DNA of 64,000 nt from Patescibacteria group bacterium (GTDB taxonomy: Bacteria > Patescibacteriota > Microgenomatia > UBA8517): positions 16,457 to 80,456 of the forward strand of contig JALHYA010000004.1 of the NCBI GenBank assembly GCA_022868165.1, in the 5' to 3' direction. This document shows positions 15,853 to 40,835 of the stretch, piece by piece. The notes beneath the pieces were generated by a model. It was not told where the DNA came from. It did no database searches and was given only the letters and a program-made list of their open reading frames with translations. A program made the translations under genes and the position numbers. Numbering within the stretch: position 1 is the first letter of the stretch; each line of letters opens with the position of its first letter.

Positions 15853-15893
15853 GAGTATATAAAAAGGTTCTCAAAACACAAGTCGTACTTTTG

Positions 15894-16006: not shown

Positions 16007-16033
16007 TAAAATAGTCGTGATAGTAGTAGGTGA

Positions 16034-16131: not shown

Positions 16132-16176
16132 TTTTGAGGCGAGTGTTGATATGTTGGTGCTTTTTGCCAACTATCC

Positions 16177-17538
16177 TCAAAGCCTCTGTTTTATCCCCAA
16201 GATATCCTGGCGGATTTGCACATCGGTCGAAGCCATCTGGGTTATTTTGTCCACAGCGTGCATTACGGTAGTATGATCTCTTCCTCCCACAAGCCTCCCA
16301 ACTTCTTCCAGAGGAAGCCCCAGGTCCCTTCGAAGTAAATACATCAGTATCTGCCGGGGTCTGGCGACGGGCCTTGCTCTGGAATCTCCAAGAAGGGAAC
16401 GTTTTCCTAAGGAGAAGTGTTTGGACACCGCGGAGATGACGTTTTCCGGATTAACCCTTTTTGTTTGCAAAGCTTGCGACTCCCCCTTACCGAGAAGTGA
16501 CTGAATAAGCTCTTCGGTTATTTGTGTATTTTTTAGTTTCGCTTCAGAAGAAAGCCTTACCAAAAACCCTTCAAGCTTTCGGGCTGAGTCGGTGTTGGCT
16601 GCAATAAGCTGAACCAATTCCATAGGAAGCTCTATTCCCCTACCGGCCGCCTTTATCTGCAAAATCGCACAGCGCAACTCAAAATCCGGGGGCGCAATGT
16701 CAACAATTAATCCCGCCTCAAAACGGCTTCTTAATCTTTCCTCGAGTTTTGATATTTCGGAAGGGGGCCTGTCGGAGGTTAAAATAATTTGACCCCCGGC
16801 GCTGGTTACGGCGTTGAATGTGTGGAAGAATTCTTCCTGCACTGCGTCCTTGCCAGCAATAAACTGAATGTCGTCTATTAAAAGGGCATCAAGTTTGCGG
16901 TATTTGTTTCTGAAAGATTGTGTCGTTTTGTTTCTTATTCCCTCCACGATGTCGTTGGTAAAATCTTCTCCGGTACAAAAAAGAACGTTTGGGTTGGGAT
17001 TTTTGCTTAAGATTTCATACCCGACAGCAATCATTAAATGGGTTTTCCCAACCCCAACGCCTCCCCAAATAAAAAGAGGGTTATATGCGCTCCCCGGAGT
17101 TTTTGAAACCGCGTCAGCCGCAGCCCACGCCATTTGATTGGAAGAAGAGACGGCAAAGTTTTCGAAAGTAAACCCCTGTCTAATCCTTGCCCTAGCTAGC
17201 GCCGTAGAAAGCACTTCCAAAGATTCCTTTTCCTGATTAAACAAAGGGGCGAGAGAGTTTTCGATTGCTTTTGTTTTTGGCGCCTGTTTTACTACAAAGA
17301 GGATGTCGCAGGGCTTCCCCAACTGTTTTGTCAAGCTGTCTTGAATCAGTCCAAAATATCTCGACTCAATGGTTGTCTTAACAAAAGGGGAATTGCAACC
17401 GACCTGTGCGGTTGCCCGATCGTTTATGTCGGCAAGATCTATTAGGTGGGTTTGGGAAAACCATGTAGAGAAAATTGCGGGGGAGACTGCAACCTTTATA
17501 CTCTCAAGGACATCGTGCCAGAGTCTATTTGCATCCAT
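16177..17538 (-). CDS. dnaA: chromosomal replication initiator DnaA
   Basis: 453 aa with Walker A GGVGVGKTHL, Walker B LLIDDIQF, and a C-terminal DNA-binding region (...GGRDHTTVMHAVDKI). Confidence 0.95.
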   Translation of the reverse strand: MDANRLWHDVLESIKVAVSPAIFSTWFSQTHLIDLADINDRATAQVGCNSPFVKTTIESRYFGLIQDSLTKQLGKPCDILFVVKQAPKTKAIENSLAPLFNQEKESLEVLSTALARARIRQGFTFENFAVSSSNQMAWAAADAVSKTPGSAYNPLFIWGGVGVGKTHLMIAVGYEILSKNPNPNVLFCTGEDFTNDIVEGIRNKTTQSFRNKYRKLDALLIDDIQFIAGKDAVQEEFFHTFNAVTSAGGQIILTSDRPPSEISKLEERLRSRFEAGLIVDIAPPDFELRCAILQIKAAGRGIELPMELVQLIAANTDSARKLEGFLVRLSSEAKLKNTQITEELIQSLLGKGESQALQTKRVNPENVISAVSKHFSLGKRSLLGDSRARPVARPRQILMYLLRRDLGLPLEEVGRLVGGRDHTTVMHAVDKITQMASTDVQIRQDILGIKQRL

Positions 17539-31122: not shown

Positions 31123-31641
31123 ATGAATAAGCTTCTTTATATTCTATTTGGTATAGTATTTGTCCTTGCTACTGTTTTAGGGGTGTTGTATGAAAGACGG
31201 GGAGGCTTGGTATTTTTGAGTAAAGACAAAATAAACTTCATAAGTAGTAAGAGCGGATTTGAGTGGGAAGTAAACGAAGATTTTGTGCGTTCGCTCGAAG
31301 AGTTGATTAGGACGAAAGAGGGCTCCGAATCGAAGAAAGTATTGGTAGTTCTCTCCTCCGAATTCAAACAAACACCCGAAGGTGGGGGATATGGAGAGCT
31401 TGAACCGTTTGTTTATGCAGAGTGGAGTTCTTCTGGAAATCGGGATACTTTAAATATCTACCTTGATGGCAATATTTGGAAGCAAATAGAAGAAAAGAAG
31501 AGAAATACCCCTGTGTCTTATCTGATATCTCAACAAATTCTGCAACACTTTGAGATGACCGATGAACCTTTAGAGAAGATTACTGAAGATATTTTTAACA
31601 ATGGACCAAAAATTTCTATTAAGGAAAGTTCAATTTTTTAA
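31123..31641 (+). CDS. membrane-anchored hypothetical protein
   Basis: 172 aa with an N-terminal TM helix (LLYILFGIVFVLATVLGVLY). Confidence 0.6.
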   Translation: MNKLLYILFGIVFVLATVLGVLYERRGGLVFLSKDKINFISSKSGFEWEVNEDFVRSLEELIRTKEGSESKKVLVVLSSEFKQTPEGGGYGELEPFVYAEWSSSGNRDTLNIYLDGNIWKQIEEKKRNTPVSYLISQQILQHFEMTDEPLEKITEDIFNNGPKISIKESSIF

Positions 31642-31648
31642 ATTTGCC

Positions 31649-33265
31649 ATGAGGAAACTAATATTGCTAATCTTTTCAGGTTTGATCTTTATTGCATTAT
31701 TTGTTGTCCCCAAAAACATTCAGGCTGCTTGTACTGGTAATACGAAATGCGCACCTTATAGTGGAGGCCATTGTTGGTGGGAGGAGAGTATGTACTATAC
31801 AGTAGGCTGTACCGCCTCGCCACAGTGCGAGGGGAATCCCTGTAATAAGGCCATTTGCCTAGTATCCGATACCTGTGCTTATGTCTGTAATCCTGGTGCA
31901 ACAACTTGTGGTCCTTGTTCCAAAACTTGTGGAGGAGGAATAAGTCTCTGTACGAATGGGTGTAGTTCGTGGAATGTGAATTGTAATACCCAGGCTTGTC
32001 CTCCGCCTGGCTGTCTTTGTGGTAACTGGGTGGACGGCGCCTGCGGTGTTGGTTTATGCGGCTCCAGCGAGCGGCAGCAAACAAGAACCTGTGTCCCTGC
32101 CGCCTGTGCCGCCGAAACCCAATGCGTTGTCGATCCAACTTGTACACTTCCTTCCAGTTGCACCGTTGATCTTCTACCGGCAACAGCCACAACATCAGTG
32201 GGCTCAAGCGTAACGCTTACGGCTTCGGTTACGGTAGGAAGTGGAACCGTTGACCAGGTAAATTTCACTTCTGCCAATACGGGGATTCTTACGGTAAGCC
32301 CGGCTTCCGACAGCACCGTGACGTATCAAACGCAGGCAACAGGGGTGGCCATTGGTTCAACTACCGTATCCACAGAGGTGATTATGGGCGGGGTTTCAAC
32401 TTGCGCTGATAGTGCTGGGTTAGGCGGAGGCACAGTTGTTAATGTGACTTCCGCAGGCCCTTGGTGGCAGGTGATTGATGCGGATATTACAACAAATGGA
32501 AGCATAACATCCAGCATTCCTGGAACTTGCGCCTTGCCGGGATGTAATCCCTTGTTTGATTTGGTCGGCCCCGGAGGCTATCCTGGTGTGCCTGCTTACG
32601 GGGGAACGGCAAGTTTTAGTACAGGCACGGTTTCTACTATTGGATGGCTGGCAAACACTTTAAGTCTAACTTCCAATAACCGGCAATATGCATATGCCTG
32701 GTTTAAGAGACTGATTCCTTCGGATGTAACTATGAATGAGATAACTTCACCTTCCATTGACGGCACCGAGCTTTCTTCAGGGGGAACGGCCAGTGGGGGA
32801 TACTATTATTACCGTTATGACGGCTCAAGCGGGCTGGATTTAACCATAAACACCGATGCTTCGTTGGGCACAAGAAAGGTAATTTTGCTGGTGGACGGGG
32901 CAGATTTGAACCTAAACGCAAGGATTAACTTCACAAAGGGACAGGGATTCTTTATGGCTTTTGTCGGCAAAACCCTGCTGGGGGCCAAGGGTAACATCAA
33001 TGTTTCTTCAACGCTTGGCGGAGGAGTCACACCCCATCTTGAAGGATTGTATGAAGCCGATGGCGCTTTCCATTCAGGAGCAGGAACAACACAGCTTTAT
33101 ATTCGCGGGTCTGTTGCGGCATATGGGGGAATGAATTTGGAACGGAATTTGACCGATAATTCCGCCACCCCGGCCGAAGTCTTTGAATACGCGCCCGATT
33201 TAATCTTCACCTATCCCTATAAACTTAGGGAAAGAAGGATCTTCTGGCAAGAAGTAGCCCCATAG
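31649..33265 (+). CDS. secreted surface protein with thrombospondin-type-1-like Cys repeats and a Big_2-like Ig domain
   Basis: The signal peptide is MRKLILLIFSGLIFIALFVVPKNIQA. CGPCSKTCGGGISLC and W..GACGVGLCGSSERQQTRTC resemble TSR cores (CSxTCGxG...R.R.C). TVDLLPATATTSVGSSVTLTASV...LTVSP is Big_2-like. I moved the start from 31601 to ATG 31649. Confidence 0.6.
   Translation: MRKLILLIFSGLIFIALFVVPKNIQAACTGNTKCAPYSGGHCWWEESMYYTVGCTASPQCEGNPCNKAICLVSDTCAYVCNPGATTCGPCSKTCGGGISLCTNGCSSWNVNCNTQACPPPGCLCGNWVDGACGVGLCGSSERQQTRTCVPAACAAETQCVVDPTCTLPSSCTVDLLPATATTSVGSSVTLTASVTVGSGTVDQVNFTSANTGILTVSPASDSTVTYQTQATGVAIGSTTVSTEVIMGGVSTCADSAGLGGGTVVNVTSAGPWWQVIDADITTNGSITSSIPGTCALPGCNPLFDLVGPGGYPGVPAYGGTASFSTGTVSTIGWLANTLSLTSNNRQYAYAWFKRLIPSDVTMNEITSPSIDGTELSSGGTASGGYYYYRYDGSSGLDLTINTDASLGTRKVILLVDGADLNLNARINFTKGQGFFMAFVGKTLLGAKGNINVSSTLGGGVTPHLEGLYEADGAFHSGAGTTQLYIRGSVAAYGGMNLERNLTDNSATPAEVFEYAPDLIFTYPYKLRERRIFWQEVAP
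33147..33265 (+). repeat. 119-bp perfect direct repeat, copy 1 (3' end of CDS 31649..33265); putative attL
   Basis: Checked base by base, this copy is identical to 39509-39627. Confidence 0.95.
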
Positions 33266-33306
33266 TCTCAAATCCCGAAGTTCTGAAAGTTGCAGGCGAC
33301 ACAAAA

Positions 33307-33336
33307 TTGGACGATAGGCGAGTTGGGCCTTATAAT
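33307..33336 (+). promoter_or_regulatory. candidate island promoter
   Basis: TTGGAC (33307-33312), an 18-nt spacer, then TATAAT (33331-33336), ending 20 nt upstream of ATG 33357. Confidence 0.4.
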
Positions 33337-33356
33337 AGTTTCTCAATAGTATATAT

Positions 33357-33923
33357 ATGGTAGACATCGACAGACTCAGGACATTGCCTGGAGAGGAATT
33401 GGTAAGGCTCGCTTTAAAAGGTGAGGTTATTCTAGCCAGCGAAGAAGGCATTGGAATTCTTGATGGCCAAATCGACCGAACAAAAAATGAAGCAGCTTCG
33501 CTTAAGCTAAGGCTAGGAGAAGTCGCTCGCCAGGACCCAGATTTGCCGGAAAATATAGAATTTAAGGAAATCAAAACCAAGTTACAGTTTGAGATCCCCA
33601 GAAAATTAGACGACTTGGGAAGGAAAAAAGCAAAAACAATAGTCTTTCAAGAAAACCAGGATGGAGCTATCCGTTTTGGAACTCTATTTGAAGCTCGGAT
33701 AGAGTATCCCACTGAGACTACCTCTGGGGTATTTGTTTTTTTGGGACCCATAGAAGCAGCCGCCGGAAAAATTGAGGCCAAACCTGAGGCCCAAGTTATT
33801 TCTTACCTGTCTGTAGTCGGAAAGGCTTTATGGGGTTATGATCCAAATAGTGGTAAACCGGTTCAGTTTGAGACGCCAGCTGGCAAGGCTACTTGTATTG
33901 TTAAAAAAGTTTTCAAGCCGTAA
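33357..33923 (+). CDS. GreA/GreB-family transcription elongation factor homolog
   Basis: 188 aa. The coiled-coil tip ARQDPDLPENIEFKEIK parallels GreA (GDLSENAEYHAAK). The C-terminus VISYLSVVGKALWGYDPNSGKPVQFETPAGKATCIVKKV parallels the GreA C-terminal domain. Confidence 0.65.
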   Translation: MVDIDRLRTLPGEELVRLALKGEVILASEEGIGILDGQIDRTKNEAASLKLRLGEVARQDPDLPENIEFKEIKTKLQFEIPRKLDDLGRKKAKTIVFQENQDGAIRFGTLFEARIEYPTETTSGVFVFLGPIEAAAGKIEAKPEAQVISYLSVVGKALWGYDPNSGKPVQFETPAGKATCIVKKVFKP

Positions 33924-34585
33924 TGATCGAGTCCAAAGAAAGTTCATATCTTTTGTATGGTCCTCCCGCAAGTGGTAAAACTGCACTTGCCCTCGAATTA
34001 AGCAGGAGGATTGCCAAGGAGTACATTTCAGTTGGCGAGCTTACTCGTAGGGAAATCGAATTAGGAACACCTAGGGGTAAAAGACTTCAGAGGTGTTTAG
34101 ACGAAGTTACCGAATATCCAATAGAGTTAATTACAGGATTGGTAGAGGAGAGCATTGTTGCTTGTATGTCGGCGGGCGAGAATTTCATTTTAGATGGTTT
34201 TCCTAAATATGCCCAAGAGGCTCGAGCGTTCGTAAAACTATTAGAAAAACACAGGATTCTCCTAGATGCAGCAATTGTAATTGACCTACCCGTTGAAGGA
34301 GCTTTTGTGCGAGTTCTTAACAGAAGAATTTGTGTTTCCTGTCTAGCGCAAACAGAAGATGGCGGACAAATATGTCCGCAATGTGGAGATGCCCTTACTA
34401 TAAGAGACGACGATATCCCACCCATATTTAAAAGAAGGTATAATGACTATAAGGACTCAATAGACGAAACACTTAGAATTATCGGACCATTTTGTAAGAG
34501 GATAATCCACATACAGGGCTCACAAAGCAAAGAAGATTTATTTAATTTGCTGTATATAAAATTATCCCTTTCCATGCCCGAGTAG
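33923..34585 (+). CDS. adenylate-kinase-like nucleotide kinase with zinc-lid
   Basis: 220 aa with P-loop YGPPASGKT, ILDGFPKYAQEA (compare LDGFPRT), and lid CVSC...CPQCGDALTIRDDD. Confidence 0.7.
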   Translation: MIESKESSYLLYGPPASGKTALALELSRRIAKEYISVGELTRREIELGTPRGKRLQRCLDEVTEYPIELITGLVEESIVACMSAGENFILDGFPKYAQEARAFVKLLEKHRILLDAAIVIDLPVEGAFVRVLNRRICVSCLAQTEDGGQICPQCGDALTIRDDDIPPIFKRRYNDYKDSIDETLRIIGPFCKRIIHIQGSQSKEDLFNLLYIKLSLSMPE

Positions 34586-34651
34586 CTCAGCAGAGAGAGC
34601 GGTTGCGTTGTAAGCAACAGGTCGATGGTTCAAGTCCATCCTCGGGCTCCA
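34576..34651 (+). tRNA. tRNA-Thr (anticodon UGU), CCA encoded, atypical D-loop
   Basis: I folded the cloverleaf by hand. The acceptor GCCCGAG/CUCGGGC has 7 of 7 Watson-Crick pairs. The D stem is GCUC/GAGC, the anticodon stem GUUGC/GCAAC, and the loop G-U-UGU-A-A. The T arm is GAUGG-UUCAAGU-CCAUC, followed by U-CCA. The D-loop AGCAGAGA lacks the usual GG, and position 32 is G. Confidence 0.8.
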
Positions 34652-34658
34652 ACAGTTT

Positions 34659-35576
34659 ATGAAAAATAAGGCCATTTTTACTTGGAAAGAGATCGTAGAA
34701 CTTTTAACTGGAAATGGTCACGCGGTTTCTTGTGCAGACATGAGTTCTCTGATTACATACTCCAGACAGCGTGGAATAGGCACGGCTATTTCTTATCAAA
34801 AAACCTCGTACTCAGAAGAAGGCTTGAAAAATCTTAAACGACTTGTTCGGTGGTGGATTTATCTAGACGATTTCACTATCCCCGAGTGGAGAAACGCTAT
34901 TATTACAAAAAAGATTCAAAAAATAGTTGTCGGCTCGTTAAAAAATAACTTACCTCTGACTTTGTACGCAGTATTCTGTCCTTCCTACAAAAAAGGGGTT
35001 GGAGTATCTGGATATACTGGGAAATTAGGAATGCATACCAAAAGGTATATTCAAAAAATGTCAGAATTCGTTCTTTCCACGGAAGATGCGGGCTTGAAAG
35101 TAAAAGGGACAGCCTTTTTTAGCGACCTTCTTTTAGAAAATTACAAAAGACTTGTCGGAACGAACTATAAAAAGGATCTCGCGTCCAACTTTCGAGAATT
35201 CAAAAAAGATATTAAAAAAAACAGTAAAGGAAAAATAAAAAGTGCTCTTTTGTCATCTATCATGGCCCTTAAGCGTGATGTCGGGGAGAAAGGGATAAAG
35301 ACTGGCCCTTTGGGGATATCAGGTGAGCTTTTTAATACGGTCTTTAAGAGGAATAGAGTTTTTTATACAAACCAGCTTGGCTGGTCGGAGCCCATGGTAA
35401 AAGAAAGAACGGAGGTCTTGGCCAGAAGTTACGCAAAACTTGGGGAATACTTTAGGAAGAAATATCCCGAGGGAATTATGTTTTGGGTAGAGAGTGCTTA
35501 CGAGAGGGGTGCCATGTATAGCGGAAACAATCAGCAGGACCCTATTCCAATAATTTATCCCAAAAAAGATGAATGA
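34659..35576 (+). CDS. hypothetical protein (island orphan)
   Basis: 305 aa and Lys-rich. I recognised no family motif. It overlaps the downstream gene by 8 nt. Confidence 0.7.
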   Translation: MKNKAIFTWKEIVELLTGNGHAVSCADMSSLITYSRQRGIGTAISYQKTSYSEEGLKNLKRLVRWWIYLDDFTIPEWRNAIITKKIQKIVVGSLKNNLPLTLYAVFCPSYKKGVGVSGYTGKLGMHTKRYIQKMSEFVLSTEDAGLKVKGTAFFSDLLLENYKRLVGTNYKKDLASNFREFKKDIKKNSKGKIKSALLSSIMALKRDVGEKGIKTGPLGISGELFNTVFKRNRVFYTNQLGWSEPMVKERTEVLARSYAKLGEYFRKKYPEGIMFWVESAYERGAMYSGNNQQDPIPIIYPKKDE

Positions 35577-36546
35577 CAATTCCAAAATAGAGGGGCTTCT
35601 AAGCAACTTGGAACTTGAGTGGTTTAGGCTGGGCCGAGATTTCCACCTCGATTTTGAATTTCTTACAAATCTTTACAGCAAGGAGAAAAAACATATTTTC
35701 GAACATAGCCCCTATCATGTACTCTCCTATTTACGATTCAAAAACCAGCTCTACGGTATTTCAGGCAGATTTGGTTCTCTAGTTTTGGTTTCGAGAAAAG
35801 ATGACAAATTTCTATTTACCCCTCGCATTGACGACTTTAAATCATTCGAGCTTTTTATCAAAGCAATTAAAAGGAGCCTCGGGGTTACCAAAATTGAAAT
35901 TCGGAACGTCAGTGAGCAATGGTTACAATCATTCCTGGTGAATGTATCAAATGTTGCGAAAAGGGGGATGTCTGTGAAAGAGCGCTCAAGGGAGGAGGCT
36001 ATCTATGATGTCGACCTGTTGTGCGAACTCCGCGGAAAAGATTTTGCAGGGATTAGACAATCCAGAAATAAGTTGTTAAACAGTGGAAGTATTCAGTTTA
36101 AGCCCTTTACTAAAATTTCCTTAAAGGACGGTGTAGGGGTCTTAAATAAATGGCAGAAAGTCCAAGGTTGGAAGTATGTTAAAGAGAGAATAGAGAAAGA
36201 GAAATATGTACTTGCGAGATTTTTTGATTTTTCTCGGTTAACAAAGAATGTATTGTGTGGGGTTGGCTATTATAAGGAAGTGCCTTTAAGTATTCTGGTT
36301 ATGCACCTTGTTCCAAACGGGGAAAAAAGCGGAACAATCTACCTACTTAAAGGAATAAACAGGCCTTCTGACGGGGGCACCCATGGAATATCAGATGCTA
36401 CTTACTGTTACGCTTTCCTTAGAGCTAAGGAGATGGGTATAAAATACCTCAATGATGGAGAATTGGGAACAGAAGAGGGTACAAGGAGACACAAACTCAA
36501 TTTTAAGCCGATAGAATTTCTCAAATCCTACGACGTTTTGCTCTAA
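35569..36546 (+). CDS. DUF2156-type (MprF/LysX C-terminal-like) putative aminoacyl-tRNA-dependent transferase
   Basis: 325 aa. EEAIYDVDLLCELRGKDFAGIRQSRNKL and the C-terminal YLNDGELGTEEGTRRHKLNFKP match the pattern I recall for DUF2156 (…Y…L..L.G......R...N.F … N.G......GL..FK..F.P). Confidence 0.55.
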   Translation: MNDNSKIEGLLSNLELEWFRLGRDFHLDFEFLTNLYSKEKKHIFEHSPYHVLSYLRFKNQLYGISGRFGSLVLVSRKDDKFLFTPRIDDFKSFELFIKAIKRSLGVTKIEIRNVSEQWLQSFLVNVSNVAKRGMSVKERSREEAIYDVDLLCELRGKDFAGIRQSRNKLLNSGSIQFKPFTKISLKDGVGVLNKWQKVQGWKYVKERIEKEKYVLARFFDFSRLTKNVLCGVGYYKEVPLSILVMHLVPNGEKSGTIYLLKGINRPSDGGTHGISDATYCYAFLRAKEMGIKYLNDGELGTEEGTRRHKLNFKPIEFLKSYDVLL

Positions 36547-36548
36547 AT

Positions 36549-37688
36549 ATGAAACAGCTAAGAACGAATGAGTTTTATAACGAGATCGAATTTGAAAAAA
36601 TTTTCCCCCCTCAACTTTATGAAAATTTCAACTCTGAATTGCCAGCACCACTAAATGGACGGACAACAATTTTCACCTTATATGGCAGAAATGCTCTGTA
36701 CCTTGGTGCGAGAGAGATGTTAAATTTGACTAAAAGAAACATTGTGCTAGTTCCGGCCTACTCGTGTGGGGATGAAATAGCTCCATTTGTAGCTTCCGGT
36801 TGCAGAATTAAAGCTTACCGTGTACACCCTGAAACCTTGCAGGTAGATAAAAAGGATATTGAGCAGAAATTGGATCAGAATGTTTCTGCGGTTTTGATAA
36901 CACACTATTTTGGTTTTCCTCAAAAGGAAATAGAAATTATAAAAAAGATATGTGGAGAAAGGGGAGTCGTACTTATTGAAGACTGTGCCCACGCTTTTGC
37001 GGGTGGATTTAAAAACATCCCCCTAGGTGCTTTTGGGGACTTTTCCATTTTTAGTTTAAGAAAGTTTTTGCCTATTCCGCATGGGGGAGCTCTGGTCATA
37101 AATAACACGAAGATAAACAGACCAAATCCCCTCCCGCCACCGGCTACGGCAGTAAATCTTGACCTTTTTCTTTATTCGGGTTACCAGGCTGGTATTTTTA
37201 CGCGAGGAATAAACATTCAGGACACACTCGATATGGTAGGTGTCAAACAAAAAGATTTACATGGCCCACGGCTAAAAGAGTTTGGTGGTTATAATTTAGG
37301 TCTTTCCAATGTTGCAAAAGTTCTAATCGCATTTATTGCAAAGCAGAAATTGTGGACAAAGAGAAGATCAAACTTTCTTTATTATTTGGACTTTTTCGAA
37401 AAGAATTCGCATAAATCGGTGCAACCGCTGTTTGAATTCCTTGAGAAAGGGGTAGTACCTTTATTTTTTCCTGTTCTAGTAAACGACTCTGAAGAGATAT
37501 ATAAAAGATTGAGAGACAAGGGCCTTTTTGCTGGACAACCATTCTGGTCTGATTCCCATACCTATTTCAACTGGGCTGATTTTTCGCCCTTAAACGAGCT
37601 GAAGAAGAAGGTTATGGTTTTGCCAGTGAATCATAGAGTCCATTATCGAGACTTAAAGCGTTTCCTTGAAGTTTCAGACTATAGGTAG
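36549..37688 (+). CDS. DegT/DnrJ/EryC1/StrS-family PLP-dependent aminotransferase
   Basis: 379 aa with VLITHYFGFPQ, LIEDCAHAFAGG, and FSIFSLRKFLPIPHGGALV, which places the Lys at the PLP position. Confidence 0.75.
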   Translation: MKQLRTNEFYNEIEFEKIFPPQLYENFNSELPAPLNGRTTIFTLYGRNALYLGAREMLNLTKRNIVLVPAYSCGDEIAPFVASGCRIKAYRVHPETLQVDKKDIEQKLDQNVSAVLITHYFGFPQKEIEIIKKICGERGVVLIEDCAHAFAGGFKNIPLGAFGDFSIFSLRKFLPIPHGGALVINNTKINRPNPLPPPATAVNLDLFLYSGYQAGIFTRGINIQDTLDMVGVKQKDLHGPRLKEFGGYNLGLSNVAKVLIAFIAKQKLWTKRRSNFLYYLDFFEKNSHKSVQPLFEFLEKGVVPLFFPVLVNDSEEIYKRLRDKGLFAGQPFWSDSHTYFNWADFSPLNELKKKVMVLPVNHRVHYRDLKRFLEVSDYR

Positions 37689-37700
37689 TATAATTCTTTT

Positions 37701-38978
37701 ATGTGTAGAGACATGTATATACTGTTTGGGCCTCCTGGAAGTGGTAAAACTGTCCAGGCGAGATTTTTGTCCCAAAGGTTGAAACTGGACGGTATTTCAT
37801 GGGGTGACATCTACTGGGGTACAAAGTTTAACAAGAAGTACAAGGGACAAATTGCTGTAATAAAGAAGGAGGCTATCTCTGACAGAACTCGCTCGAAGGA
37901 GATAGCAAAGATAATTGACAAGGAAATTGGCAGCCTTACTTTACGAAATAAAGGCGGGAAGCGGGGGTTGGTTTTGGACGGATTTCCTAGAAGATTGGGA
38001 GAGGCTAGACTCCTTCTTAAAATATGCAAGAAAAGGGGATACAGAATAAAATCCTTGATTCGCATAAATCCATCTTTAGATTTTTCAGCGAACCGCTTCA
38101 AAAAAAGGCTTTTTTGTGAAAAATGCCGCGCTTATTACGATGAACTCAATCTACCCAAGAAGAAGGGTCGTTGTGATTTAGACGGCGGAAGGCTATCTCA
38201 TATGGATATTTCAAAGGAGAGTGTGGCGAAAGAATTTAACACCTATTTAGACGAATGTCTCGAAACATTTGAATATCTCAAAGATTATGCAGACATTTTT
38301 TTTGATGTAACTGGCGACGATGAAGATATGGTTATTTCTTCAAATATTCTTATTAAAATAAAGAATAGAATTCGAGAAAATTATAGTCTCTTTTCAAGAA
38401 AGCCCTCTACATCTATTATGACTAAGTACGGTAGTTTTAAGCTTGTACCCTATCAATCACGACTAGATTATTCCTACCACTTAGCGCTTGTAAAGGGAAA
38501 CGTTAGAGATGGAAAACGAGTACTGGTTAGGGTTCATTCCTCTTGCATAACCGGAGATATTTTTGGGTCCTATATGTGTGATTGCGGAGAACAACTAGAG
38601 GAATCCATGAAAAGAATCGAGCACGAAAAGAGGGGAGTTTTAATATATTTATTTCAGGAAGGCAGGGGCATAAACATGATTAACAAAATTCAAGCTTACA
38701 GGTTACAACGCAATGGGTATGACACAGTGGATGCTAATGAAGCCATCGGTTTTCCAGCCGAAATGAGGGACTACCGGTTAGTGAAGGAGGTTTTGGAGGA
38801 TTTGGGGGTAAAAACAATTAGATTGTTGTCCAATAGTCCCGAGAAGATCAATAAACTTACAGACCAGGGAGTTATTATAGAAGAAATGGTTGGAGTCGAA
38901 GTAGAGCCTCGAAAGTGGAACAGAGGATACTTGCTTACAAAAAAGGAGAAAATGGGTCATAAGTTGGATGTTTCATAA
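37701..38978 (+). CDS. fusion protein: adenylate-kinase-like N-domain + GTP cyclohydrolase II (RibA-like) C-domain
   Basis: The N-domain has LFGPPGSGKT, LDGFPRRLGEA and lid CEKC...CDLDGG. The C-domain has VRVHSSCITGDIFGSYMCDCGEQL, conserving the three Zn Cys of RibA, plus QEGRGINMINK...GYDTVDAN...LLSNSPEK. ATG 37713 is an alternative start. Confidence 0.75.
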   Translation: MCRDMYILFGPPGSGKTVQARFLSQRLKLDGISWGDIYWGTKFNKKYKGQIAVIKKEAISDRTRSKEIAKIIDKEIGSLTLRNKGGKRGLVLDGFPRRLGEARLLLKICKKRGYRIKSLIRINPSLDFSANRFKKRLFCEKCRAYYDELNLPKKKGRCDLDGGRLSHMDISKESVAKEFNTYLDECLETFEYLKDYADIFFDVTGDDEDMVISSNILIKIKNRIRENYSLFSRKPSTSIMTKYGSFKLVPYQSRLDYSYHLALVKGNVRDGKRVLVRVHSSCITGDIFGSYMCDCGEQLEESMKRIEHEKRGVLIYLFQEGRGINMINKIQAYRLQRNGYDTVDANEAIGFPAEMRDYRLVKEVLEDLGVKTIRLLSNSPEKINKLTDQGVIIEEMVGVEVEPRKWNRGYLLTKKEKMGHKLDVS

Positions 38979-39507
38979 TAATATGAAAGTTGTTTTAGGG
39001 TCCACAAGTGATGATAAAAAAAGAATTGTAAAGGCAGCCCTGAAATCTCTTGGTGTAAAGGCTGTGATTGAGGGGGTTACTGTCTCTTCGGGGATAAGTG
39101 AGCAGCCTTTAGATAAAAAGACCACGATTTGCGGTGCAGTGAATCGGGCGGTAGAAGCCTTGAAAATTAAAACCGATTCGGACCTCGCTGTGGGGTTAGA
39201 GGGGGGCTTGGATCGAGTAAAAGATTCAGGCTTTTTTCTTGTGTGTGCGGCTGCTATATATGACAAAAGCGGAGGAATCTATCTGGGAACGAGCAGGAAA
39301 ATAAAACTTCCCAAAGAAGTATCTGAAAAAATAGAGGAGGGGGCATTTTTCGGAACGGTAATTAGAGAATATAGAAAGAAAGTAAGAAAAAATAAGGCAT
39401 TGTTTAATCTTTCAGACCAACTTATAACAAGAAATGTCCCTTTTTCAGAGGCAATACGAAACGCCTATAAATCTTTCAAAGAAGGTACACTCTATCAAAA
39501 GTTTTAG
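38968..39507 (+). CDS. YjjX-family non-canonical purine NTP phosphatase (ITPase/XTPase)
   Basis: MKVVLGSTSDDKKRIVKAAL...VSSGISEQPL...GAVNRA...LAVGLEGGL resembles the inosine/xanthosine triphosphatase family. ATG 38983 is an alternative start. The stop ends 1 nt before repeat copy 2. Confidence 0.6.
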   Translation: MFHNNMKVVLGSTSDDKKRIVKAALKSLGVKAVIEGVTVSSGISEQPLDKKTTICGAVNRAVEALKIKTDSDLAVGLEGGLDRVKDSGFFLVCAAAIYDKSGGIYLGTSRKIKLPKEVSEKIEEGAFFGTVIREYRKKVRKNKALFNLSDQLITRNVPFSEAIRNAYKSFKEGTLYQKF

Positions 39508-39508
39508 G

Positions 39509-39627
39509 ATTTGACCGATAATTCCGCCACCCCGGCCGAAGTCTTTGAATACGCGCCCGATTTAATCTTCACCTATCCCTATAAACTTAGGGAAAGAAGG
39601 ATCTTCTGGCAAGAAGTAGCCCCATAG
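39509..39627 (+). repeat. 119-bp perfect direct repeat, copy 2 (orphan copy of the gene 3' end); putative attR
   Basis: Identical to 33147-33265. It ends 2 nt before the convergent tsaD stop codon (39630-39632). Confidence 0.95.
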
Positions 39628-39629
39628 GT

Positions 39630-40835
39630 TTAGGCTGAATCGACAATCGTCATCTCCGCGTTAGCTGAAATCTTTTCCAAGGAAGCGGGTTTGTTGTTGA
39701 AAAAGGCATATGAGGCGATATATGCGGCGTTGTCCGTGCAGAGATTTGCGGGAGGAAATCGTAAATCAACTTTTAACTTTTCACTTTTCACTTTTAACTC
39801 AAATACTTGTCGAAGACGAGTATTAGCCGATACTCCTCCAGCTAAAAGAAGGGATTTGGGCTTGAATTTCTTTACTGCGTCCAGAGTCTTTTTAACTAAA
39901 ACGTCAACGATTGCCTCCTGTATTTCTGCTGCCAGCCTGGAAGTTAGAGGTGGGAAGCTTGAAGCTGGATGTAGATGTTGGAGTTTAGATTTATTCCAAC
40001 TTCTAACTTCTTTGTCCAGCTTCTCACCTCTATTTTCCAATTTCTCTGTTTCCCTAAGCACCGCTGTCTTAAGGCCCGAAAAACTGAAGTCAAAATTATC
40101 CTCATCAATCATCGGTCTGGGAAGTAGATTTAGTTGGAAGTGGGAGGCAGGAGGCTGGAAGTTCGCTGCGGCGGCGGCGATGGCTGGTCCTCCCGGGTAG
40201 GGAAGTCCCAAAAGACGGGCGGACTTGTCAAAAGCCTCGCCGGCCGCATCATCCCTTGTTCCTCCAATCCACTCTATTTTTCCCCGCCCGCCAGCGCTAC
40301 GCGCAAGCGTTGCGGGCGCGGCGTGGCCTTTCATCAGAACCAAATCCGTATGTCCTCCGGAAACAACCAGTGCCAGTGCCGGAAATTCCGGCCGACTATC
40401 CGTTAGCCAGTTGGCGTATATGTGTGCCACAAGATGGTTAACCGGAATAACAGGCTTTTTCCATAAATAGGAAAGGGTTTTGGCCGTTTCTACTCCGACC
40501 AAAAGGGAACCAATAAGGCCCGGCCCGACGGTTACGGCAATGGCGTCTATATTGGAAGATAGAAGATGGAGGTTTGAAGCTAGATTTTGATGTTGGATAT
40601 TAGATTTTTCCTCCAACTTCGAACTTCTAACTTCAGAGACAGTACTTAGTGCTTCGGAGATAACAGGAAGAACGCTGAGAACCTGCTGGCGTGCAGCCTG
40701 CTCCGGGATTACGCCGCCAAATTTGGCCTGCATTTCCGCGCTCGATGCAACAACATTGGAAAGAATTTTTGTTCCGTCTTCGACAACTGCCGCTGCAGTT
40801 TCATCACATGAGGTCTCTATCCCCAGAATTTTCAT
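39630..40835 (-). CDS. tsaD: tRNA N6-adenosine threonylcarbamoyltransferase TsaD, with low-complexity insertions
   Basis: Contains MKILGIETSCDETAAAVV, AIAVTVGPGLIGSLLVG, VVSGGHT, GGTRDDAAGEAFDK, FSFSGLKTA and LAGGVSANTRLR. At 401 aa it is longer than typical TsaD proteins, which as I recall are about 330-350 aa. Confidence 0.9.
   Translation of the reverse strand: MKILGIETSCDETAAAVVEDGTKILSNVVASSAEMQAKFGGVIPEQAARQQVLSVLPVISEALSTVSEVRSSKLEEKSNIQHQNLASNLHLLSSNIDAIAVTVGPGLIGSLLVGVETAKTLSYLWKKPVIPVNHLVAHIYANWLTDSRPEFPALALVVSGGHTDLVLMKGHAAPATLARSAGGRGKIEWIGGTRDDAAGEAFDKSARLLGLPYPGGPAIAAAAANFQPPASHFQLNLLPRPMIDEDNFDFSFSGLKTAVLRETEKLENRGEKLDKEVRSWNKSKLQHLHPASSFPPLTSRLAAEIQEAIVDVLVKKTLDAVKKFKPKSLLLAGGVSANTRLRQVFELKVKSEKLKVDLRFPPANLCTDNAAYIASYAFFNNKPASLEKISANAEMTIVDSA
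39768..39800. repeat. tandem heptamer repeat (AACTTTT/CACTTTT x4) inside tsaD
   Basis: The sequence aacttttaacttttcacttttcacttttaactc encodes ELKVKSEKLKV on the coding strand. Confidence 0.75.
39936..40046. repeat. GGAAGTT-type palindromic heptamer element, in-frame inside tsaD (copy B)
   Basis: The left half is ctggaag|ttagagg|tgggaag|cttgaag|ctggatg... The right half is ...ccaacttctaacttctttgtccagcttctcacctcta. The arms are mutually complementary, and the element is homologous to 40551-40640. Confidence 0.75.
40551..40640. repeat. GGAAGTT-type palindromic heptamer element, in-frame inside tsaD (copy D)
   Basis: The sequence is attggaagatagaagatggaggtttgaagctagattttgatgttggatattagatttttcctccaacttcgaacttctaacttcagagac. 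With copy B it shares gatgttgga..ttagattt..ccaacttc..taacttc. Confidence 0.75.

What the first reader, a model, noticed from the sequence alone, without database searches (positions are those of the whole stretch)
33357..39507. Island cargo combines purine-nucleotide enzymes with a tRNA-dependent-transferase module: candidate undescribed pathway
Seen by motif, in one compact same-strand array: a GreA-like factor; an Adk-like kinase with Zn lid; tRNA-Thr(UGU); a 305-aa orphan; a DUF2156-type protein; a DegT-family aminotransferase; an Adk-like/GTP cyclohydrolase II fusion; and a YjjX-type ITP/XTPase. Established: the DUF2156 family contains the MprF/LysX C-terminal domains, which use aminoacyl-tRNA as donor. 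GTP cyclohydrolase II opens the imidazole ring of GTP, the first step of riboflavin and toxoflavin-type pathways. DegT enzymes aminate keto-sugar nucleotides. YjjX hydrolyses ITP and XTP. I saw none of the usual partners of these enzymes in the island: no RibD/RibB/RibH, no sugar dehydratase, no MprF flippase domain. The combination therefore does not match any pathway I know. Inference (speculative): the cargo either makes or modifies an aminoacylated amino-sugar or ring-opened purine nucleotide, or is a nucleotide-pool manipulation module (GTP destruction plus ITP/XTP clean-up) of the kind used in phage-host conflict. A FemAB-like gene at 63545-64000 shows the host also uses tRNA-dependent transfer elsewhere.
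Basis: partly seen in the sequence, partly recalled or inferred. Interest (0 to 1): 0.8.

Follow-up and report, generated by a model that had tools for sequence, protein, structure and literature searches.

The report
Mobile GTP-opening operon with own tRNA
A 6.4-kb gene cassette found only in the ultra-small Patescibacteria combines an enzyme that breaks open GTP, two enzymes whose folds are typical of tRNA- or amino-acid-using transferases, and its own threonine-type tRNA that in most lineages looks unfit for decoding, which points to an undescribed tRNA-dependent pathway for a GTP-derived compound.

Summary
The same gene order recurs in at least 13 divergent Patescibacteria lineages, in unrelated genomic contexts. 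The order is GreA-like, Adk-like, tRNA, 305-aa protein, DUF2156 transferase, DegT aminotransferase, Adk::GTP cyclohydrolase II, YjjX-type NTPase. Natural fusions tie the parts together: orphan::DUF2156, orphan::Adk, NDK::orphan and RibA::NTPase.

The "orphan" has a confident predicted structure. Its closest matches are IsnA/PvcA isonitrile synthases, the TyrRS core and cyclodipeptide synthases. The DUF2156 protein has the MprF/FemX/Sbb17 aminoacyl-tRNA-transferase fold. The RibA domain keeps all catalytic residues.

The embedded tRNA is the main surprise. Its acceptor, D and T arms are nearly invariant across lineages, while the anticodon stem covaries. G35-U36 (Thr identity) is fixed, N34 varies freely, position 37 is mostly U, and G19 is missing. 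This resembles a dedicated non-decoding aminoacyl carrier.

In the window a perfect 119-nt direct repeat brackets the cassette, so the "island" idea has support.

My best reading is a mobile cassette for a tRNA-dependent, GTP-derived small molecule. The product is unknown. I found no description in the searched literature.

The parts
33147..33265 (+). Left copy of a perfect 119-nt direct repeat. It is the last 39 codons plus stop of ORF 31601-33265, an att-like cassette boundary.
   Evidence: the repeat finder gave 100% identity with spacing 6362; checked in Python. An independent k=31 Logan contig, L001, equals window 33236-39538. It therefore ends exactly 30 nt inside each repeat copy.
33308..33336 (+). 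Promoter-like site (TGGACG-17-TATAAT) 20 nt upstream of the first gene.
   Evidence: Consensus scan only. The number of such sites in the region is not above the shuffle expectation, so this is weak.
33357..33923 (+). GreA-like factor, a divergent paralogue with a conserved acidic tip (DPDLPEN).
   Evidence: PF01272 at 22.2 bits, below the cut-off. NCBIfam GreA equivalogs score about 25 bits against cut-offs of 139-167. A GreA-like gene lies next to the operon in 11 lineages.
33923..34585 (+). Stand-alone Adk-like NMP kinase (ADK1). The P-loop, R36, zinc LID, R123, R156-D-D and R167 are kept. R88->K and Q92->E occur in all members.
   Evidence: Its stop codon is the TAG formed by tRNA positions 8-10.
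34576..34651 (+). Operon-embedded tRNA with Thr identity (UGU here, CCA encoded). It belongs to a family with invariant acceptor, D and T arms and a free wobble base.
34659..35576 (+). 'Orphan' 305-aa enzyme with an IsnA/PvcA-like architecture on a TyrRS/CDPS-type Rossmann core. Invariant motifs: FCPSY, GYTG, FSDLLLEN, ESAYERG.
35569..36546 (+). Soluble DUF2156-type tandem-GNAT aminoacyl-tRNA transferase. It overlaps the orphan gene by 8 nt.
36549..37688 (+). DegT/DnrJ/EryC1-family PLP aminotransferase, with K172 and the EDCAH motif conserved.
   Evidence: It is present or absent together with the DUF2156 gene.
37701..38978 (+). Fusion of an Adk-like domain (ADK2) with an intact GTP cyclohydrolase II. 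ADK2 keeps the P-loop and zinc lid but lacks R156, D158, D159 and R167. In this copy R36 is W.
38968..39507 (+). YjjX-type NTPase (NTPase_I-T, an ITPase/XTPase family).
   Evidence: PF01931 at 98 bits. YjjX structures 1u5w and 1u14 are the best PDB relatives. A RibA::NTPase fusion exists, P0159.
39509..39627 (+). Right copy of the 119-nt direct repeat. It starts 2 nt after the NTPase stop and ends 2 nt before the stop of the convergent tsaD gene.

Best explanation
The region is a self-contained, horizontally mobile cassette specific to Patescibacteria. It encodes a tRNA-dependent pathway that builds a small molecule from GTP.

Proposed flow (inferred unless marked as shown):
1. The Adk-like kinases keep guanine nucleotide at the triphosphate level. 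ADK1 has K88/E92 in its NMP site, and other lineages use NDK or guanylate kinase.
2. The GTP cyclohydrolase II domain opens the imidazole ring. This yields 2,5-diamino-6-ribosylamino-pyrimidinone 5'-phosphate, formate and PPi. The intact active site is shown; the activity is not.
3. The IsnA/PvcA-like 'orphan' works on this intermediate. Its solved relatives join an amino-acid nitrogen to ribulose-5-phosphate. Here it would act on the ribosyl or ribulosyl-5-phosphate amine together with an amino acid or aminoacyl-tRNA.
4. The DegT enzyme converts a keto group, plausibly the Amadori 2'-keto group, into an amine.
5. The DUF2156 transferase acylates an amine with an amino acid, most likely threonine. 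The donor would be the operon's own tRNA, charged by ThrRS through G1-C72, C2-G71, G35 and U36.
6. In most lineages that tRNA has lost features needed for decoding. It would therefore act as a private aminoacyl donor or carrier, like the non-proteinogenic tRNAGly of staphylococci.
7. The YjjX-type NTPase trims or sanitises non-canonical purine NTPs. CYTH or Ham1 take its place in other lineages.
8. The GreA-like paralogue regulates or protects transcription.

The final product is unknown.
For: One unit:
- The same order, ADK1 - tRNA - orphan - DUF2156 - DegT - ADK::RibA - NTPase, with a GreA-like gene adjacent, occurs in the window and in Amesbacteria, Blackburnbacteria, Paceibacterota, Taylorbacteria and unnamed lineages. 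Proteins are only 35-55% identical and the flanking genes are unrelated.
- Saccharibacteria (L034) and L035 keep all the protein genes.
- Fusions link the parts: orphan::DUF2156 (five representatives), orphan::ADK (three), NDK::orphan, RibA::NTPase and ADK::RibA.
- The orphan also pairs with a FolE2-type GTP cyclohydrolase plus CYTH (L039).

Enzymology:
- RibA keeps the Zn cysteines, Tyr and Arg, and exceeds the TIGR00505 cut-off.
- DegT keeps its lysine and co-varies in presence with DUF2156.
- IsnA chemistry joins an amino-acid N to a carbon of ribulose-5-phosphate (PMC7949033 abstract).

tRNA:
- 13 distinct sequences share an invariant acceptor stem and U73, an invariant D arm (D loop AGCAGAGA, with A19 in place of G19) and a near-invariant T arm with U51-A63.
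- All five anticodon-stem pairs covary. On the 11 sequences aligned, 99.6% of cells pair and 0 of 500 shuffles reach the observed score.
- G35-U36 is invariant, and position 34 is U, C or A. Position 37 is U in 8 of the 12 sequences with a 7-nt loop, and U33 is replaced by A in 3. One sequence has a 9-nt loop.
- A metagenome-wide scan for the D-arm 20-mer found this tRNA body only next to the operon.
- Loss of G18G19 and weak 51-63 pairs are the published marks of staphylococcal non-proteinogenic tRNAGly (PMC4052509).

Mobility:
- A perfect 119-nt direct repeat brackets the cassette. Both junctions are seen in an independent assembly, and cassette GC is 0.40 against 0.45.
- Analogous bracketing repeats occur in L002 (47 nt, the 3' end of rho) and L005 (38 nt).
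Against: - No step has biochemical support and the product is unknown.
- L002/L015 lack DUF2156 and DegT yet keep the tRNA. Saccharibacteria and L035 keep DUF2156 but have no embedded tRNA. The tRNA is therefore not obligatorily coupled to DUF2156. Its partner may be the orphan, whose N-terminal 30-55 residues are missing in the tRNA-less lineages.
- The orphan shows no detectable sequence relation to IsnA/PvcA, CDPS or aaRS families. I could not make a residue-level superposition.
- The window's own tRNA has a canonical loop (U33, UGU, A37) and an encoded CCA. In this genome it could also decode.
- The ADK2 domain lacks the LID arginines, and R36 in this copy, so its kinase role is doubtful.
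- No Amadori isomerase is encoded in this cassette. A PRAI-like domain appears only in a distant variant without the orphan (L036).
- The repeat length of 119 equals, to my recollection, one of MEGAHIT's default k-mer sizes. The integrated arrangement could therefore be a mis-threaded graph loop, meaning a 6,362-bp circle plus an empty site.
- No integrase is present.
Confidence: 0.5

Rival explanations
1. Orthogonal charging triad. The orphan is a degenerate class-I-synthetase-like ligase that loads the dedicated tRNA with a non-standard acyl or amino-acid group, possibly made from the GTP-derived intermediate. The DUF2156 domain then transfers that group, as in ErdS (AspRS::DUF2156).
For: - orphan::DUF2156 fusions mirror aaRS::DUF2156 fusions, where the synthetase feeds the transferase (PMC7334510).
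- orphan::ADK and NDK::orphan fusions would suit an NTP-consuming ligase.
- The tRNA gene abuts the orphan start codon by 5-12 nt.
- The orphan's N-terminal extension is present only where the tRNA is.
Against: - There is no HIGH or KMSKS equivalent; the position after the first Rossmann strand reads FCPSY...GxHTK with a variable H.
- There is no anticodon-binding domain.
- The invariant G35-U36 is most simply read as ThrRS recognition.
- Foldseek ranks the ATP-independent IsnA/PvcA enzymes above TyrRS over the full length.
Confidence: 0.15
2. Primary-metabolic cofactor route. The cassette makes a pterin, lumazine or flavin-like cofactor from GTP for organisms that lack the canonical folate and riboflavin pathways. 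The tRNA-dependent steps attach an amino-acid tail.
For: - The orphan pairs interchangeably with GTP cyclohydrolase II or a FolE2-type GTP cyclohydrolase I.
- A distant ADK::RibA cluster carries a PRAI-like Amadori isomerase, guanylate kinase and Ham1. As I recall it, RibA plus a TrpF-type isomerase substitutes for FolE in Chlamydia.
- folD lies next to the Saccharibacteria operon.
Against: - The cassette is rare, patchy and apparently mobile, which is unlike an essential cofactor pathway.
- No deaminase, reductase, lumazine-synthase or pterin-processing genes are present.
- The DegT and DUF2156 genes are dispensable in L002.
Confidence: 0.15
3. The tRNA is an ordinary housekeeping tRNAThr, or merely a cis-acting processing or translational-coupling element, that happens to be carried in the operon. 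The enzymes use bulk aminoacyl-tRNA or none.
For: - The window copy is canonical (U33, A37, CCA).
- tRNA-less versions of the operon exist.
- The ADK1 stop lies inside the tRNA and the orphan start lies 5-12 nt after it, which suggests an RNA-processing role.
Against: - The wobble base varies freely between U, C and A, while the arms stay invariant across lineages whose proteins are about 45% identical.
- U37 precludes t6A. A33, A19 and a 9-nt loop are incompatible with normal decoding.
- This tRNA body is found nowhere else in 241 million metagenome records.
Confidence: 0.1
4. Nucleotide-pool manipulation or anti-phage (or anti-host) conflict module: GTP destruction plus ITP/XTP clean-up.
For: - The cassette is mobile and has lower GC.
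- It encodes enzymes that degrade GTP and non-canonical NTPs.
- The lineages that carry it are, on general knowledge, episymbiotic.
Against: - There are no PADLOC matches beyond trivial P-loop noise.
- No homologue turned up in phage genomes or IMG/VR.
- No sensor or effector architecture is present.
- Biosynthetic tailoring enzymes (DegT, DUF2156, the IsnA-like protein) are hard to explain by depletion alone.
Confidence: 0.07
5. Unrelated housekeeping genes clustered by chance in a compact genome.
For: Each Pfam family on its own is common. Flanking genes in the window are housekeeping.
Against: - Synteny is conserved over at least 13 lineages with different flanks.
- Five kinds of domain fusion link the parts.
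- The subfamilies are tiny: 35 orphan clusters and 33 DUF2156-like clusters.
- All scores are far below the equivalog cut-offs for housekeeping Adk, GreA and YjjX.
Confidence: 0.02

Closest known systems
Aminoacyl-tRNA-dependent tailoring in aminoglycoside or nucleoside-type antibiotic clusters, e.g. Sbb17/Orf11 of streptothricin-related BD-12, acting on streptothrisamine
   Same: - The transferase is soluble and encoded in a compact biosynthetic cluster.
   Different: - The scaffold here starts from GTP cyclohydrolase II, not from a sugar or arginine pathway.
- The cluster carries its own tRNA and an IsnA-like enzyme.
- The host is Patescibacteria, not an actinomycete.
- No activity has been shown.
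Staphylococcal non-proteinogenic tRNAGly used by FemXAB
   Same: - It is a dedicated tRNA isoacceptor diverted from translation to a transferase.
- It has lost the G18G19 signature (A19 here) and has a weak 51-63 pair (U-A here) (PMC4052509).
   Different: - The tRNA here is embedded inside the enzyme operon and overlaps the upstream ORF.
- The wobble base is unconstrained, and position 37 is mostly U.
- Identity is Thr, not Gly.
- The acceptor is not peptidoglycan, as far as the context shows.
aaRS::DUF2156 fusions (fungal ErdS; actinobacterial LysX)
   Same: A Rossmann-fold, synthetase-like domain fused or adjacent to a DUF2156 transferase, which suggests channelling of an acyl-tRNA (PMC7334510).
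   Different: - The partner here lacks all class-I synthetase motifs and an anticodon-binding domain.
- There is no membrane or lipid context.
- LysX is recalled from memory, not tested here.
IsnA/PvcA isonitrile synthases (DIT1_PvcA family)
   Same: - They have the same size, about 305 aa.
- They handle an amino-acid nitrogen and a pentulose-5-phosphate.
   Different: - There is no sequence-level membership (no PF05141 hit).
- No IsnB/PvcB-type Fe/2OG oxygenase partner is present.
- The likely pentulose phosphate is the ribosyl or ribulosyl moiety of ring-opened GTP, which is inference.
Cyclodipeptide synthases
   Different: - The match is weaker than to IsnA/PvcA (Foldseek E about 0.04).
- The orphan has an extra N-terminal domain.
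- Catalytic-residue equivalence was not tested.
GTP-cyclohydrolase-II-initiated pathways (riboflavin, toxoflavin; RibA plus TrpF bypass to pterins in Chlamydia)
   Same: An intact RibA active site provides the first committed step from GTP. As I recall, condensation of the diaminopyrimidine with an amino-acid-derived unit has a precedent in toxoflavin.
   Different: - RibD, RibB, RibH, RibE and ToxCDE are all absent.
- RibA is fused to an Adk-like domain.
- The partners are tRNA-dependent enzymes.

Membership tests
GTP cyclohydrolase II (RibA) | Profile score above the curated cut-off | tested here: met
   TIGR00505 scores 220.9 against 205.85. PF00925 scores 205 bits.
GTP cyclohydrolase II (RibA) | Zn-binding Cys triad, catalytic Tyr105 and Arg128 (E. 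coli numbering) | tested here: met
   Alignment to 2bz0. C282, C293, C295, Y333 and the Arg are conserved in all 8 family members.
GTP cyclohydrolase II (RibA) | Converts GTP to the diaminopyrimidinone, formate and PPi | not testable with these tools
   Needs an enzyme assay.
DUF2156 / aminoacyl-tRNA transferase (MprF C-terminal domain, FemX superfamily) | Pfam PF09924 above the gathering score | tested here: met
   34.0 bits against 27.5. 26 of 33 homologues carry the precomputed PF09924 annotation.
DUF2156 / aminoacyl-tRNA transferase (MprF C-terminal domain, FemX superfamily) | Tandem-GNAT fold shared with solved aa-tRNA transferases | tested here: met
   [not shown]
DUF2156 / aminoacyl-tRNA transferase (MprF C-terminal domain, FemX superfamily) | Positively charged helix between the two GNAT halves, which binds aa-tRNA | tested here: met
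   The consensus GKxFAKLRxxRNKL falls in helix 157-171, with R163 invariant. The feature is described in PMC7334510.
MprF proper (lipid lysyltransferase/flippase) | N-terminal membrane flippase domain | tested here: not met
   The protein is 325 aa and entirely the soluble tandem-GNAT domain.
IsnA/PvcA isonitrile synthase (PF05141 DIT1_PvcA) | Sequence-profile membership | tested here: not met
   No Pfam hit for any of the 35 members at E<=10. The PDB sequence-profile search finds no PvcA or IsnA.
IsnA/PvcA isonitrile synthase (PF05141 DIT1_PvcA) | Full-length fold similarity | tested here: met
   [not shown]
IsnA/PvcA isonitrile synthase (PF05141 DIT1_PvcA) | Adjacent Fe(II)/2-oxoglutarate oxygenase partner (IsnB/PvcB) | tested here: not met
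   No such gene occurs in any of the operons.
Class I aminoacyl-tRNA synthetase | HIGH and KMSKS motifs; anticodon-binding domain | tested here: not met
   The family alignment shows FCPSY...GxHTK with a variable H and no KMSKS. The protein is 305 aa without a C-terminal domain.
Cyclodipeptide synthase | Fold, and catalytic Ser/Tyr/Glu in equivalent positions | tested here: inconclusive
   [not shown]
Non-decoding ('non-proteinogenic') tRNA | Retains the cloverleaf and synthetase identity elements | tested here: met
   99.6% of cells pair and all five anticodon-stem pairs covary. G1-C72, C2-G71, G35, U36 and U73 are invariant. That these are ThrRS identity elements rests on established knowledge.
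Non-decoding ('non-proteinogenic') tRNA | Loss of features needed on the ribosome or EF-Tu (G18G19, strong 51-63 pair, U33, purine 37, constrained wobble) | tested here: met
   A19 and U51-A63 occur in all. U37 occurs in 8 of the 12 sequences with a 7-nt loop, A33 in 3, and one has a 9-nt loop. N34 is U, C or A. The window copy itself is canonical at positions 33 and 37.
Non-decoding ('non-proteinogenic') tRNA | Excluded from translation and used by a transferase | not testable with these tools
   Needs charging, EF-Tu-binding and transfer assays.
DegT/DnrJ/EryC1 aminotransferase | Pfam above cut-off and a PLP-binding Lys | tested here: met
   PF01041 at 76.7 bits against 19.8. K172 aligns with the Lys of 4zwv and is invariant, as is EDCA[HQ].
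DegT/DnrJ/EryC1 aminotransferase | Acts on an NDP-4-keto-sugar made by an adjacent 4,6-dehydratase | tested here: not met
   No dehydratase occurs in the cassette or the window. All NCBIfam equivalogs score far below cut-off.
Adenylate kinase | Equivalog-level score and the full catalytic set (R36, R88, R123, R156, R167) | tested here: not met
   ADK1 scores 100.7 on TIGR01351 against a cut-off of 168, with R88K and Q92E. ADK2 lacks R156, D158, D159 and R167. Both are family members by Pfam only.
YjjX ITPase/XTPase | Pfam above cut-off; equivalog score | tested here: inconclusive
   PF01931 scores 98 against 25, so that is met. TIGR00258 scores 73.5 against 117.1, so that is not met. The conserved GSTS, QP and GLEGG motifs are present.
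GreA/GreB transcript-cleavage factor | Profile membership and an acidic coiled-coil tip | tested here: inconclusive
   The window copy scores 22.2 against 26.9, and equivalogs score about 25 against 139-167. Orthologues score 28-38 bits. The tip DxDLPEN is conserved in the four upstream-type orthologues aligned.
Known anti-phage defence systems (PADLOC) | Match to any defence-protein model | tested here: not met
   Only P-loop noise at E>=1e-3. No phage or IMG/VR homologues.
Integrative genomic island | Flanking direct repeats at a gene's 3' end; compositional shift | tested here: met
   The 119-nt perfect repeat, and GC of 0.40 against 0.45. There are analogues in L002 and L005.
Integrative genomic island | Own integrase or recombinase | tested here: not met
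   None is encoded between the repeats.

The most novel reading that the evidence does not exclude
The operon tRNA is a covalent carrier rather than a simple donor. Threonine esterified to this private tRNA would be chemically remodelled on the tRNA by the IsnA-like enzyme. That enzyme would use the ribulosyl-5-phosphate or formyl part of ring-opened GTP. The DUF2156 domain would then hand the product over. This would be a tRNA-scaffolded natural-product or signalling-nucleotide pathway. The product might be sensed at RNA polymerase through the co-inherited GreA-like factor. That would be a new class of tRNA-dependent biosynthesis and the first mobile cassette known to carry its own non-decoding tRNA.
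Probability: 0.12. Interest if true: 0.93.

Novelty: new variant of a known kind. Interest (0 to 1): 0.8.

Why it matters
Patescibacteria account for a large share of bacterial diversity, yet almost nothing is known of any specialised chemistry they perform.

- The cassette is small (6.4 kb) and clonable, and all of its parts can be tested.
- If the model holds, it gives a second natural example of a tRNA retired from decoding to serve a transferase. This one is packaged with its enzymes on a mobile element.
- It also gives a new enzyme family that bridges isonitrile synthases, cyclodipeptide synthases and class-I synthetases.
- It would reveal a previously unseen fate for the GTP cyclohydrolase II product.
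- The tRNA may offer a naturally orthogonal scaffold for synthetic biology, if charging and EF-Tu assays confirm that it is excluded from translation.
- The work shows that gene callers routinely translate this tRNA into false N-terminal extensions of the orphan protein.

Tried and rejected
Searches that found nothing:
- Sequence searches gave no classification of the orphan: Pfam at E<=10 on all 35 members, NCBIfam, and a PDB sequence profile.
- The AlphaFold-DB Foldseek library was unavailable.
- PADLOC, phage tblastn and an IMG/VR scan were all negative, so I rejected the defence or phage reading.
- Nine literature searches on combinations of GTP cyclohydrolase II, adenylate kinase, Patescibacteria or Saccharibacteria, aminoacyl-tRNA, DUF2156, cyclodipeptide synthase and non-proteinogenic tRNA found no description of this operon.

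Readings I changed or narrowed:
- I first judged the 'island' label unsupported, because there is no integrase and the neighbours are housekeeping genes. I reversed this after finding the 119-nt bracketing repeat.
- I tested whether the D-arm 20-mer marks a general tRNA type. The 9 non-operon hits have unrelated acceptor stems or are not tRNAs.
- I looked for the tRNA in the Saccharibacteria, L035, L033, L036 and L038 variants with ARAGORN, and in the first three also with Rfam at E<=0.1. None was found.
- I tested whether the unannotated partners in the ADK::RibA::CYTH clusters (L033, L036) are remote orphan homologues. hhalign probability was 0.1%, so I rejected this.
- The promoter and terminator scan gave counts no higher than shuffles.
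- The GTDB-representative scan recovered only 4 loci because it relies on exact peptide patterns.

Full report
**1.

ORF listing, ARAGORN and Rfam place seven same-strand genes and one tRNA at 33357-39507.
- 33357-33923: a weak GreA C-terminal domain (22.2 bits, below the 26.9 cut-off).
- 33923-34585: ADK with a CxxC...CxxC zinc lid.
- 34659-35576: a 305-aa protein with no family.
- 35569-36546: PF09924/DUF2156 (34.0 against 27.5).
- 36549-37688: DegT (76.7 bits).
- 37701-38978: ADK plus GTP cyclohydrolase II (205 bits; TIGR00505 220.9 against 205.85).
- 38968-39507: NTPase_I-T (98 bits).

Catalytic residues survive proper alignment.
- The RibA Zn cysteines, Tyr105 and Arg128 equivalents are conserved.
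- The DegT lysine K172 is conserved.
- The NTPase motifs are conserved.

None of the 57 largest ORFs in the 64-kb window, scanned against Pfam, is RibD, RibB, RibH, a sugar dehydratase or a flippase. The window is a Patescibacteria chromosome segment. It carries dnaA and dnaN, L25, LeuRS, tsaD, groES/EL and MetRS. The orphan is NCBI protein MUP46_01500 from a 'Patescibacteria group bacterium'.

**2. The genes are one unit**

The orphan family is tiny. It has 35 clusters among 5.8 billion proteins and 106 representatives among 1.84 billion. The DUF2156 subfamily is the same size, at 33 clusters.

Neighbourhoods of homologues show one gene order: ADK1 - tRNA - orphan - DUF2156 - DegT - ADK::RibA - NTPase. 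It occurs in Amesbacteria, Blackburnbacteria, Paceibacterota, Taylorbacteria and several unnamed lineages. Proteins are 35-55% identical and the flanking genes are completely different.

A GreA-like gene is adjacent in 11 lineages, upstream or downstream and on either strand.

Variation between lineages is informative.
- One lineage (L002/L015) lacks DUF2156 and DegT together and has a small GNAT instead.
- Saccharibacteria (L034) and L035 keep every protein gene but have no tRNA. Their orphan lacks the N-terminal 30-55 residues.

Natural fusions link the parts: orphan::DUF2156 (five representatives, including Taylorbacteria L037), orphan::ADK (three), NDK::orphan next to a stand-alone RibA (L038), RibA::NTPase (L035) and ADK::RibA (about 90 clusters).

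In L039 the orphan::ADK fusion follows a FolE2-type GTP cyclohydrolase I and a CYTH triphosphatase. In L040 the order is orphan - CYTH - ADK. The invariant core is therefore a GTP cyclohydrolase, an Adk-like or NDK kinase, a triphosphate hydrolase and the orphan.

ADK::RibA also occurs without the orphan. In L033 it sits with a methyltransferase. In L036 it sits with CYTH, a PRAI-like domain, guanylate kinase and Ham1.

**3. The proteins**

*The orphan.* It folds with high confidence (pLDDT 94.4).
- Foldseek ranks the isonitrile synthases PIsnA and PvcA first over almost the full length (E 6e-5, TM 0.57). TyrRS comes next, and CDPS is weaker.
- There is no HIGH or KMSKS motif. The invariant motifs are FCPSY, GYTG, FSDLLLEN and ESAYERG.
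- IsnA-type enzymes join the nitrogen of Trp or Tyr to a carbon of ribulose-5-phosphate (PMC7949033). CDPSs use aminoacyl-tRNAs on the same core fold (PMC4066775 abstract).

*ADK1.* It keeps all phosphoryl-transfer residues but has K88 and E92 in the NMP site in every member.

*ADK2, fused to RibA.* It keeps the P-loop and R88 but lacks the LID arginines, and in this copy R36 is W. Its role as a kinase is therefore uncertain.

**4. The tRNA**

A tRNA sits between ADK1 and the orphan in every locus of the main clade.

A scan of 241 million metagenome records for the D-arm 20-mer returned 23 hits.
- 14 have the same acceptor and T arms. All of these lie directly after an ADK1 gene, and directly before the orphan wherever the contig extends that far.
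- The other 9 are unrelated sequences.

Several orphan homologues carry false N-terminal extensions, 'VQVHPRA' or 'GGSSPSSG'. These are translations of the tRNA's 3' half, so the same tRNA lies upstream of them too.

Thirteen distinct sequences show the following.
- The acceptor stem (G1-C72, C2-G71, C3-G70), U73 and the D arm are invariant. The T arm is nearly so.
- All five anticodon-stem pairs show compensatory changes. On the 11 sequences aligned, 99.6% of cells pair and 0 of 500 shuffles reach the observed score.
- G35 and U36 are invariant, while N34 is U, C or A.
- Position 37 is U in 8 of the 12 sequences with a 7-nt loop, which excludes t6A.
- U33 is replaced by A in 3 sequences, and one lineage has a 9-nt loop.
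- The D loop AGCAGAGA has A19 instead of G19, and pair 51-63 is U-A.

Loss of G18G19 and a weak 51-63 pair are the published hallmarks of staphylococcal tRNAGly species that serve FemXAB instead of the ribosome (PMC4052509). G1-C72, C2-G71, G35 and U36 are the classical ThrRS identity set, which is established knowledge.

I infer a dedicated tRNA that ThrRS can charge and that does not decode. The window copy is the exception: it has U33 and A37 and encodes CCA.

The packing is extreme.
- In 7 of 13 loci the ADK1 stop codon is the U8-A9-G10 of the tRNA.
- In 3 more the stop lies elsewhere inside the tRNA, and in one just past its 3' end, so the ADK1 reading frame overlaps the tRNA in 11 of 13.
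- The orphan start follows the discriminator base by 5-12 nt.

tRNA processing and translation of both neighbours must therefore interact. This last point is inference.

**5. Mobility**

A perfect 119-nt direct repeat lies at 33147-33265 and 39509-39627.
- The first copy is the 3' end of ORF 31601-33265.
- The second starts 2 nt after the NTPase stop and ends 2 nt before the tsaD stop.
- Together they bracket the eight genes exactly.

An independent k=31 assembly of run SRR19116065 gives a 6,303-nt contig equal to window 33236-39538. It stops exactly k-1 nt inside each copy, so both junctions exist in the reads.

Cassette GC is 0.40, against 0.45 on either side.

L002 has a 47-nt repeat at 94% identity: the 3' end of rho, and again just after the last cassette gene. 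L005 has a 38-nt terminator-like repeat enclosing ADK1 through the GreA-like gene. Six other loci show none.

No recombinase is encoded. The assembly graph is equally compatible with a 6,362-bp circle plus an empty site. As I recall, 119 is also one of MEGAHIT's default k values, so the integrated form needs checking against reads.

**6. Mechanism**

*Shown computationally*
- An intact GTP cyclohydrolase II.
- A bona fide aa-tRNA-transferase fold.
- A DegT enzyme with its lysine.
- An IsnA/TyrRS/CDPS-like enzyme.
- A dedicated tRNA.
- Tight genetic coupling of all of these.

*Inferred*
1. Kinases supply GTP.
2. RibA opens the ring.
3. The orphan acts on the ribosyl or ribulosyl-5-phosphate amine with an amino acid or aminoacyl-tRNA.
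4. DegT aminates a keto (Amadori) position.
5. DUF2156 acylates an amine with threonine from the operon tRNA.
6. The NTPase, or CYTH or Ham1 in other lineages, trims or sanitises non-canonical NTPs.
7. The GreA-like factor regulates or protects transcription.

Confidence that this is one functional, tRNA-linked cassette is about 0.85. Confidence in the specific flow is about 0.3-0.4. I give 0.5 overall.

*Rivals*
- An orthogonal synthetase-tRNA-transferase triad, as in ErdS (0.15).
- A pterin or flavin-like cofactor route, suggested by RibA/FolE2 interchange and by the PRAI, Gmk and Ham1 variant (0.15).
- An ordinary or merely cis-acting tRNA (0.10).
- A conflict or nucleotide-depletion module, with PADLOC, phage and IMG/VR all negative (0.07).
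- Chance clustering (0.02).

**7. Novelty**

Each fold is known, and tRNA-dependent tailoring and non-proteinogenic tRNAs have precedents. I found no described pathway that combines GTP cyclohydrolase II with tRNA-dependent enzymes. I found no family assignment for the orphan, and no earlier case of an operon- or cassette-borne tRNA with an unconstrained wobble base. Nine literature searches found nothing relevant. I classify it as a new variant of a known kind, namely aminoacyl-tRNA-dependent small-molecule biosynthesis. There is a real chance it is something more distinct.

Noticed in passing
window 33147-33265 and 39509-39627: A perfect 119-nt direct repeat brackets the operon. Its length equals what I recall as a default MEGAHIT k value. 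The arrangement could therefore be either a true integrated cassette or a mis-threaded 6,362-bp circular element.
   Followed up: partly
window 34576-34585; L002, L003, L005, L007, L014, L030: The ADK1 stop codon is the U8-A9-G10 of the tRNA, and the orphan ATG lies 5-12 nt after the tRNA's 3' end. RNase P cleavage would remove the ADK1 stop codon, and 3' processing would leave the orphan mRNA almost leaderless.
   Followed up: partly
P0007, P0018, P0019, P0023, P0032, P0034, P0035 (alignment A1): Database orphan proteins carry spurious N-terminal extensions ('VQVHPRA', 'GGSSPSSG'). These are translations of the upstream tRNA gene, so gene callers are reading through the tRNA.
   Followed up: yes
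L039 (GCA_900218215.1 contig) and L040: The orphan::ADK fusion sits behind a FolE2-type GTP cyclohydrolase I and a CYTH triphosphatase. The orphan family therefore pairs with two unrelated GTP cyclohydrolase types.
   Followed up: partly
L036 7352-15229: A distant ADK::RibA cluster has no orphan. Its genes are ADK, ADK::RibA, CYTH, a 323-aa unknown, a 1041-aa protein with a PRAI-like (Amadori isomerase) domain, guanylate kinase and a Ham1 ITPase. It may be a related GTP-derived pathway.
   Followed up: partly
L033 7001-12952 (Uhrbacteria): A triple fusion ADK::RibA::CYTH (636 aa) is followed by a methyltransferase, two unknown proteins and an MBL-fold hydrolase. There is no tRNA and no orphan.
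   Followed up: no
L009 / L013: A contig labelled 'Nanoarchaeota archaeon' (JBBSXF010000060.1) carries the same bacterial-type operon and tRNA as Patescibacteria. This is probably mis-binning, or otherwise a transfer into DPANN archaea.
   Followed up: no
L030 3718-3790: In this one lineage the T loop has U56 instead of C56. U56 would pair with the family's unusual A19, which may be a compensatory change at the tRNA elbow.
   Followed up: no
window 8326-14163: A type-IV-secretion or conjugation-like gene set is present: a PrgI-family protein, a TraG/VirB4-type P-loop ATPase and large proteins with no family hit.
   Followed up: no
window 14734-17538: dnaN and dnaA lie at the minimum of cumulative GC skew (about 15-18 kb). 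The window probably spans the replication origin.
   Followed up: no
window 63545-64000 (- strand): A FemAB-family gene (C-terminal part, 26 bits) runs off the window end.
   Followed up: partly
window 39630-40835 (- strand): tsaD (t6A synthase) converges on the cassette, only 2 nt from the right repeat. The adjacency to a tRNAThr-type gene is not conserved in other loci, so it is probably coincidental.
   Followed up: yes
L034 1360-3455 (Saccharibacteria): Two GreA-family paralogues (157 and 171 aa) lie upstream of the tRNA-less operon, and folD lies immediately downstream on the opposite strand.
   Followed up: no
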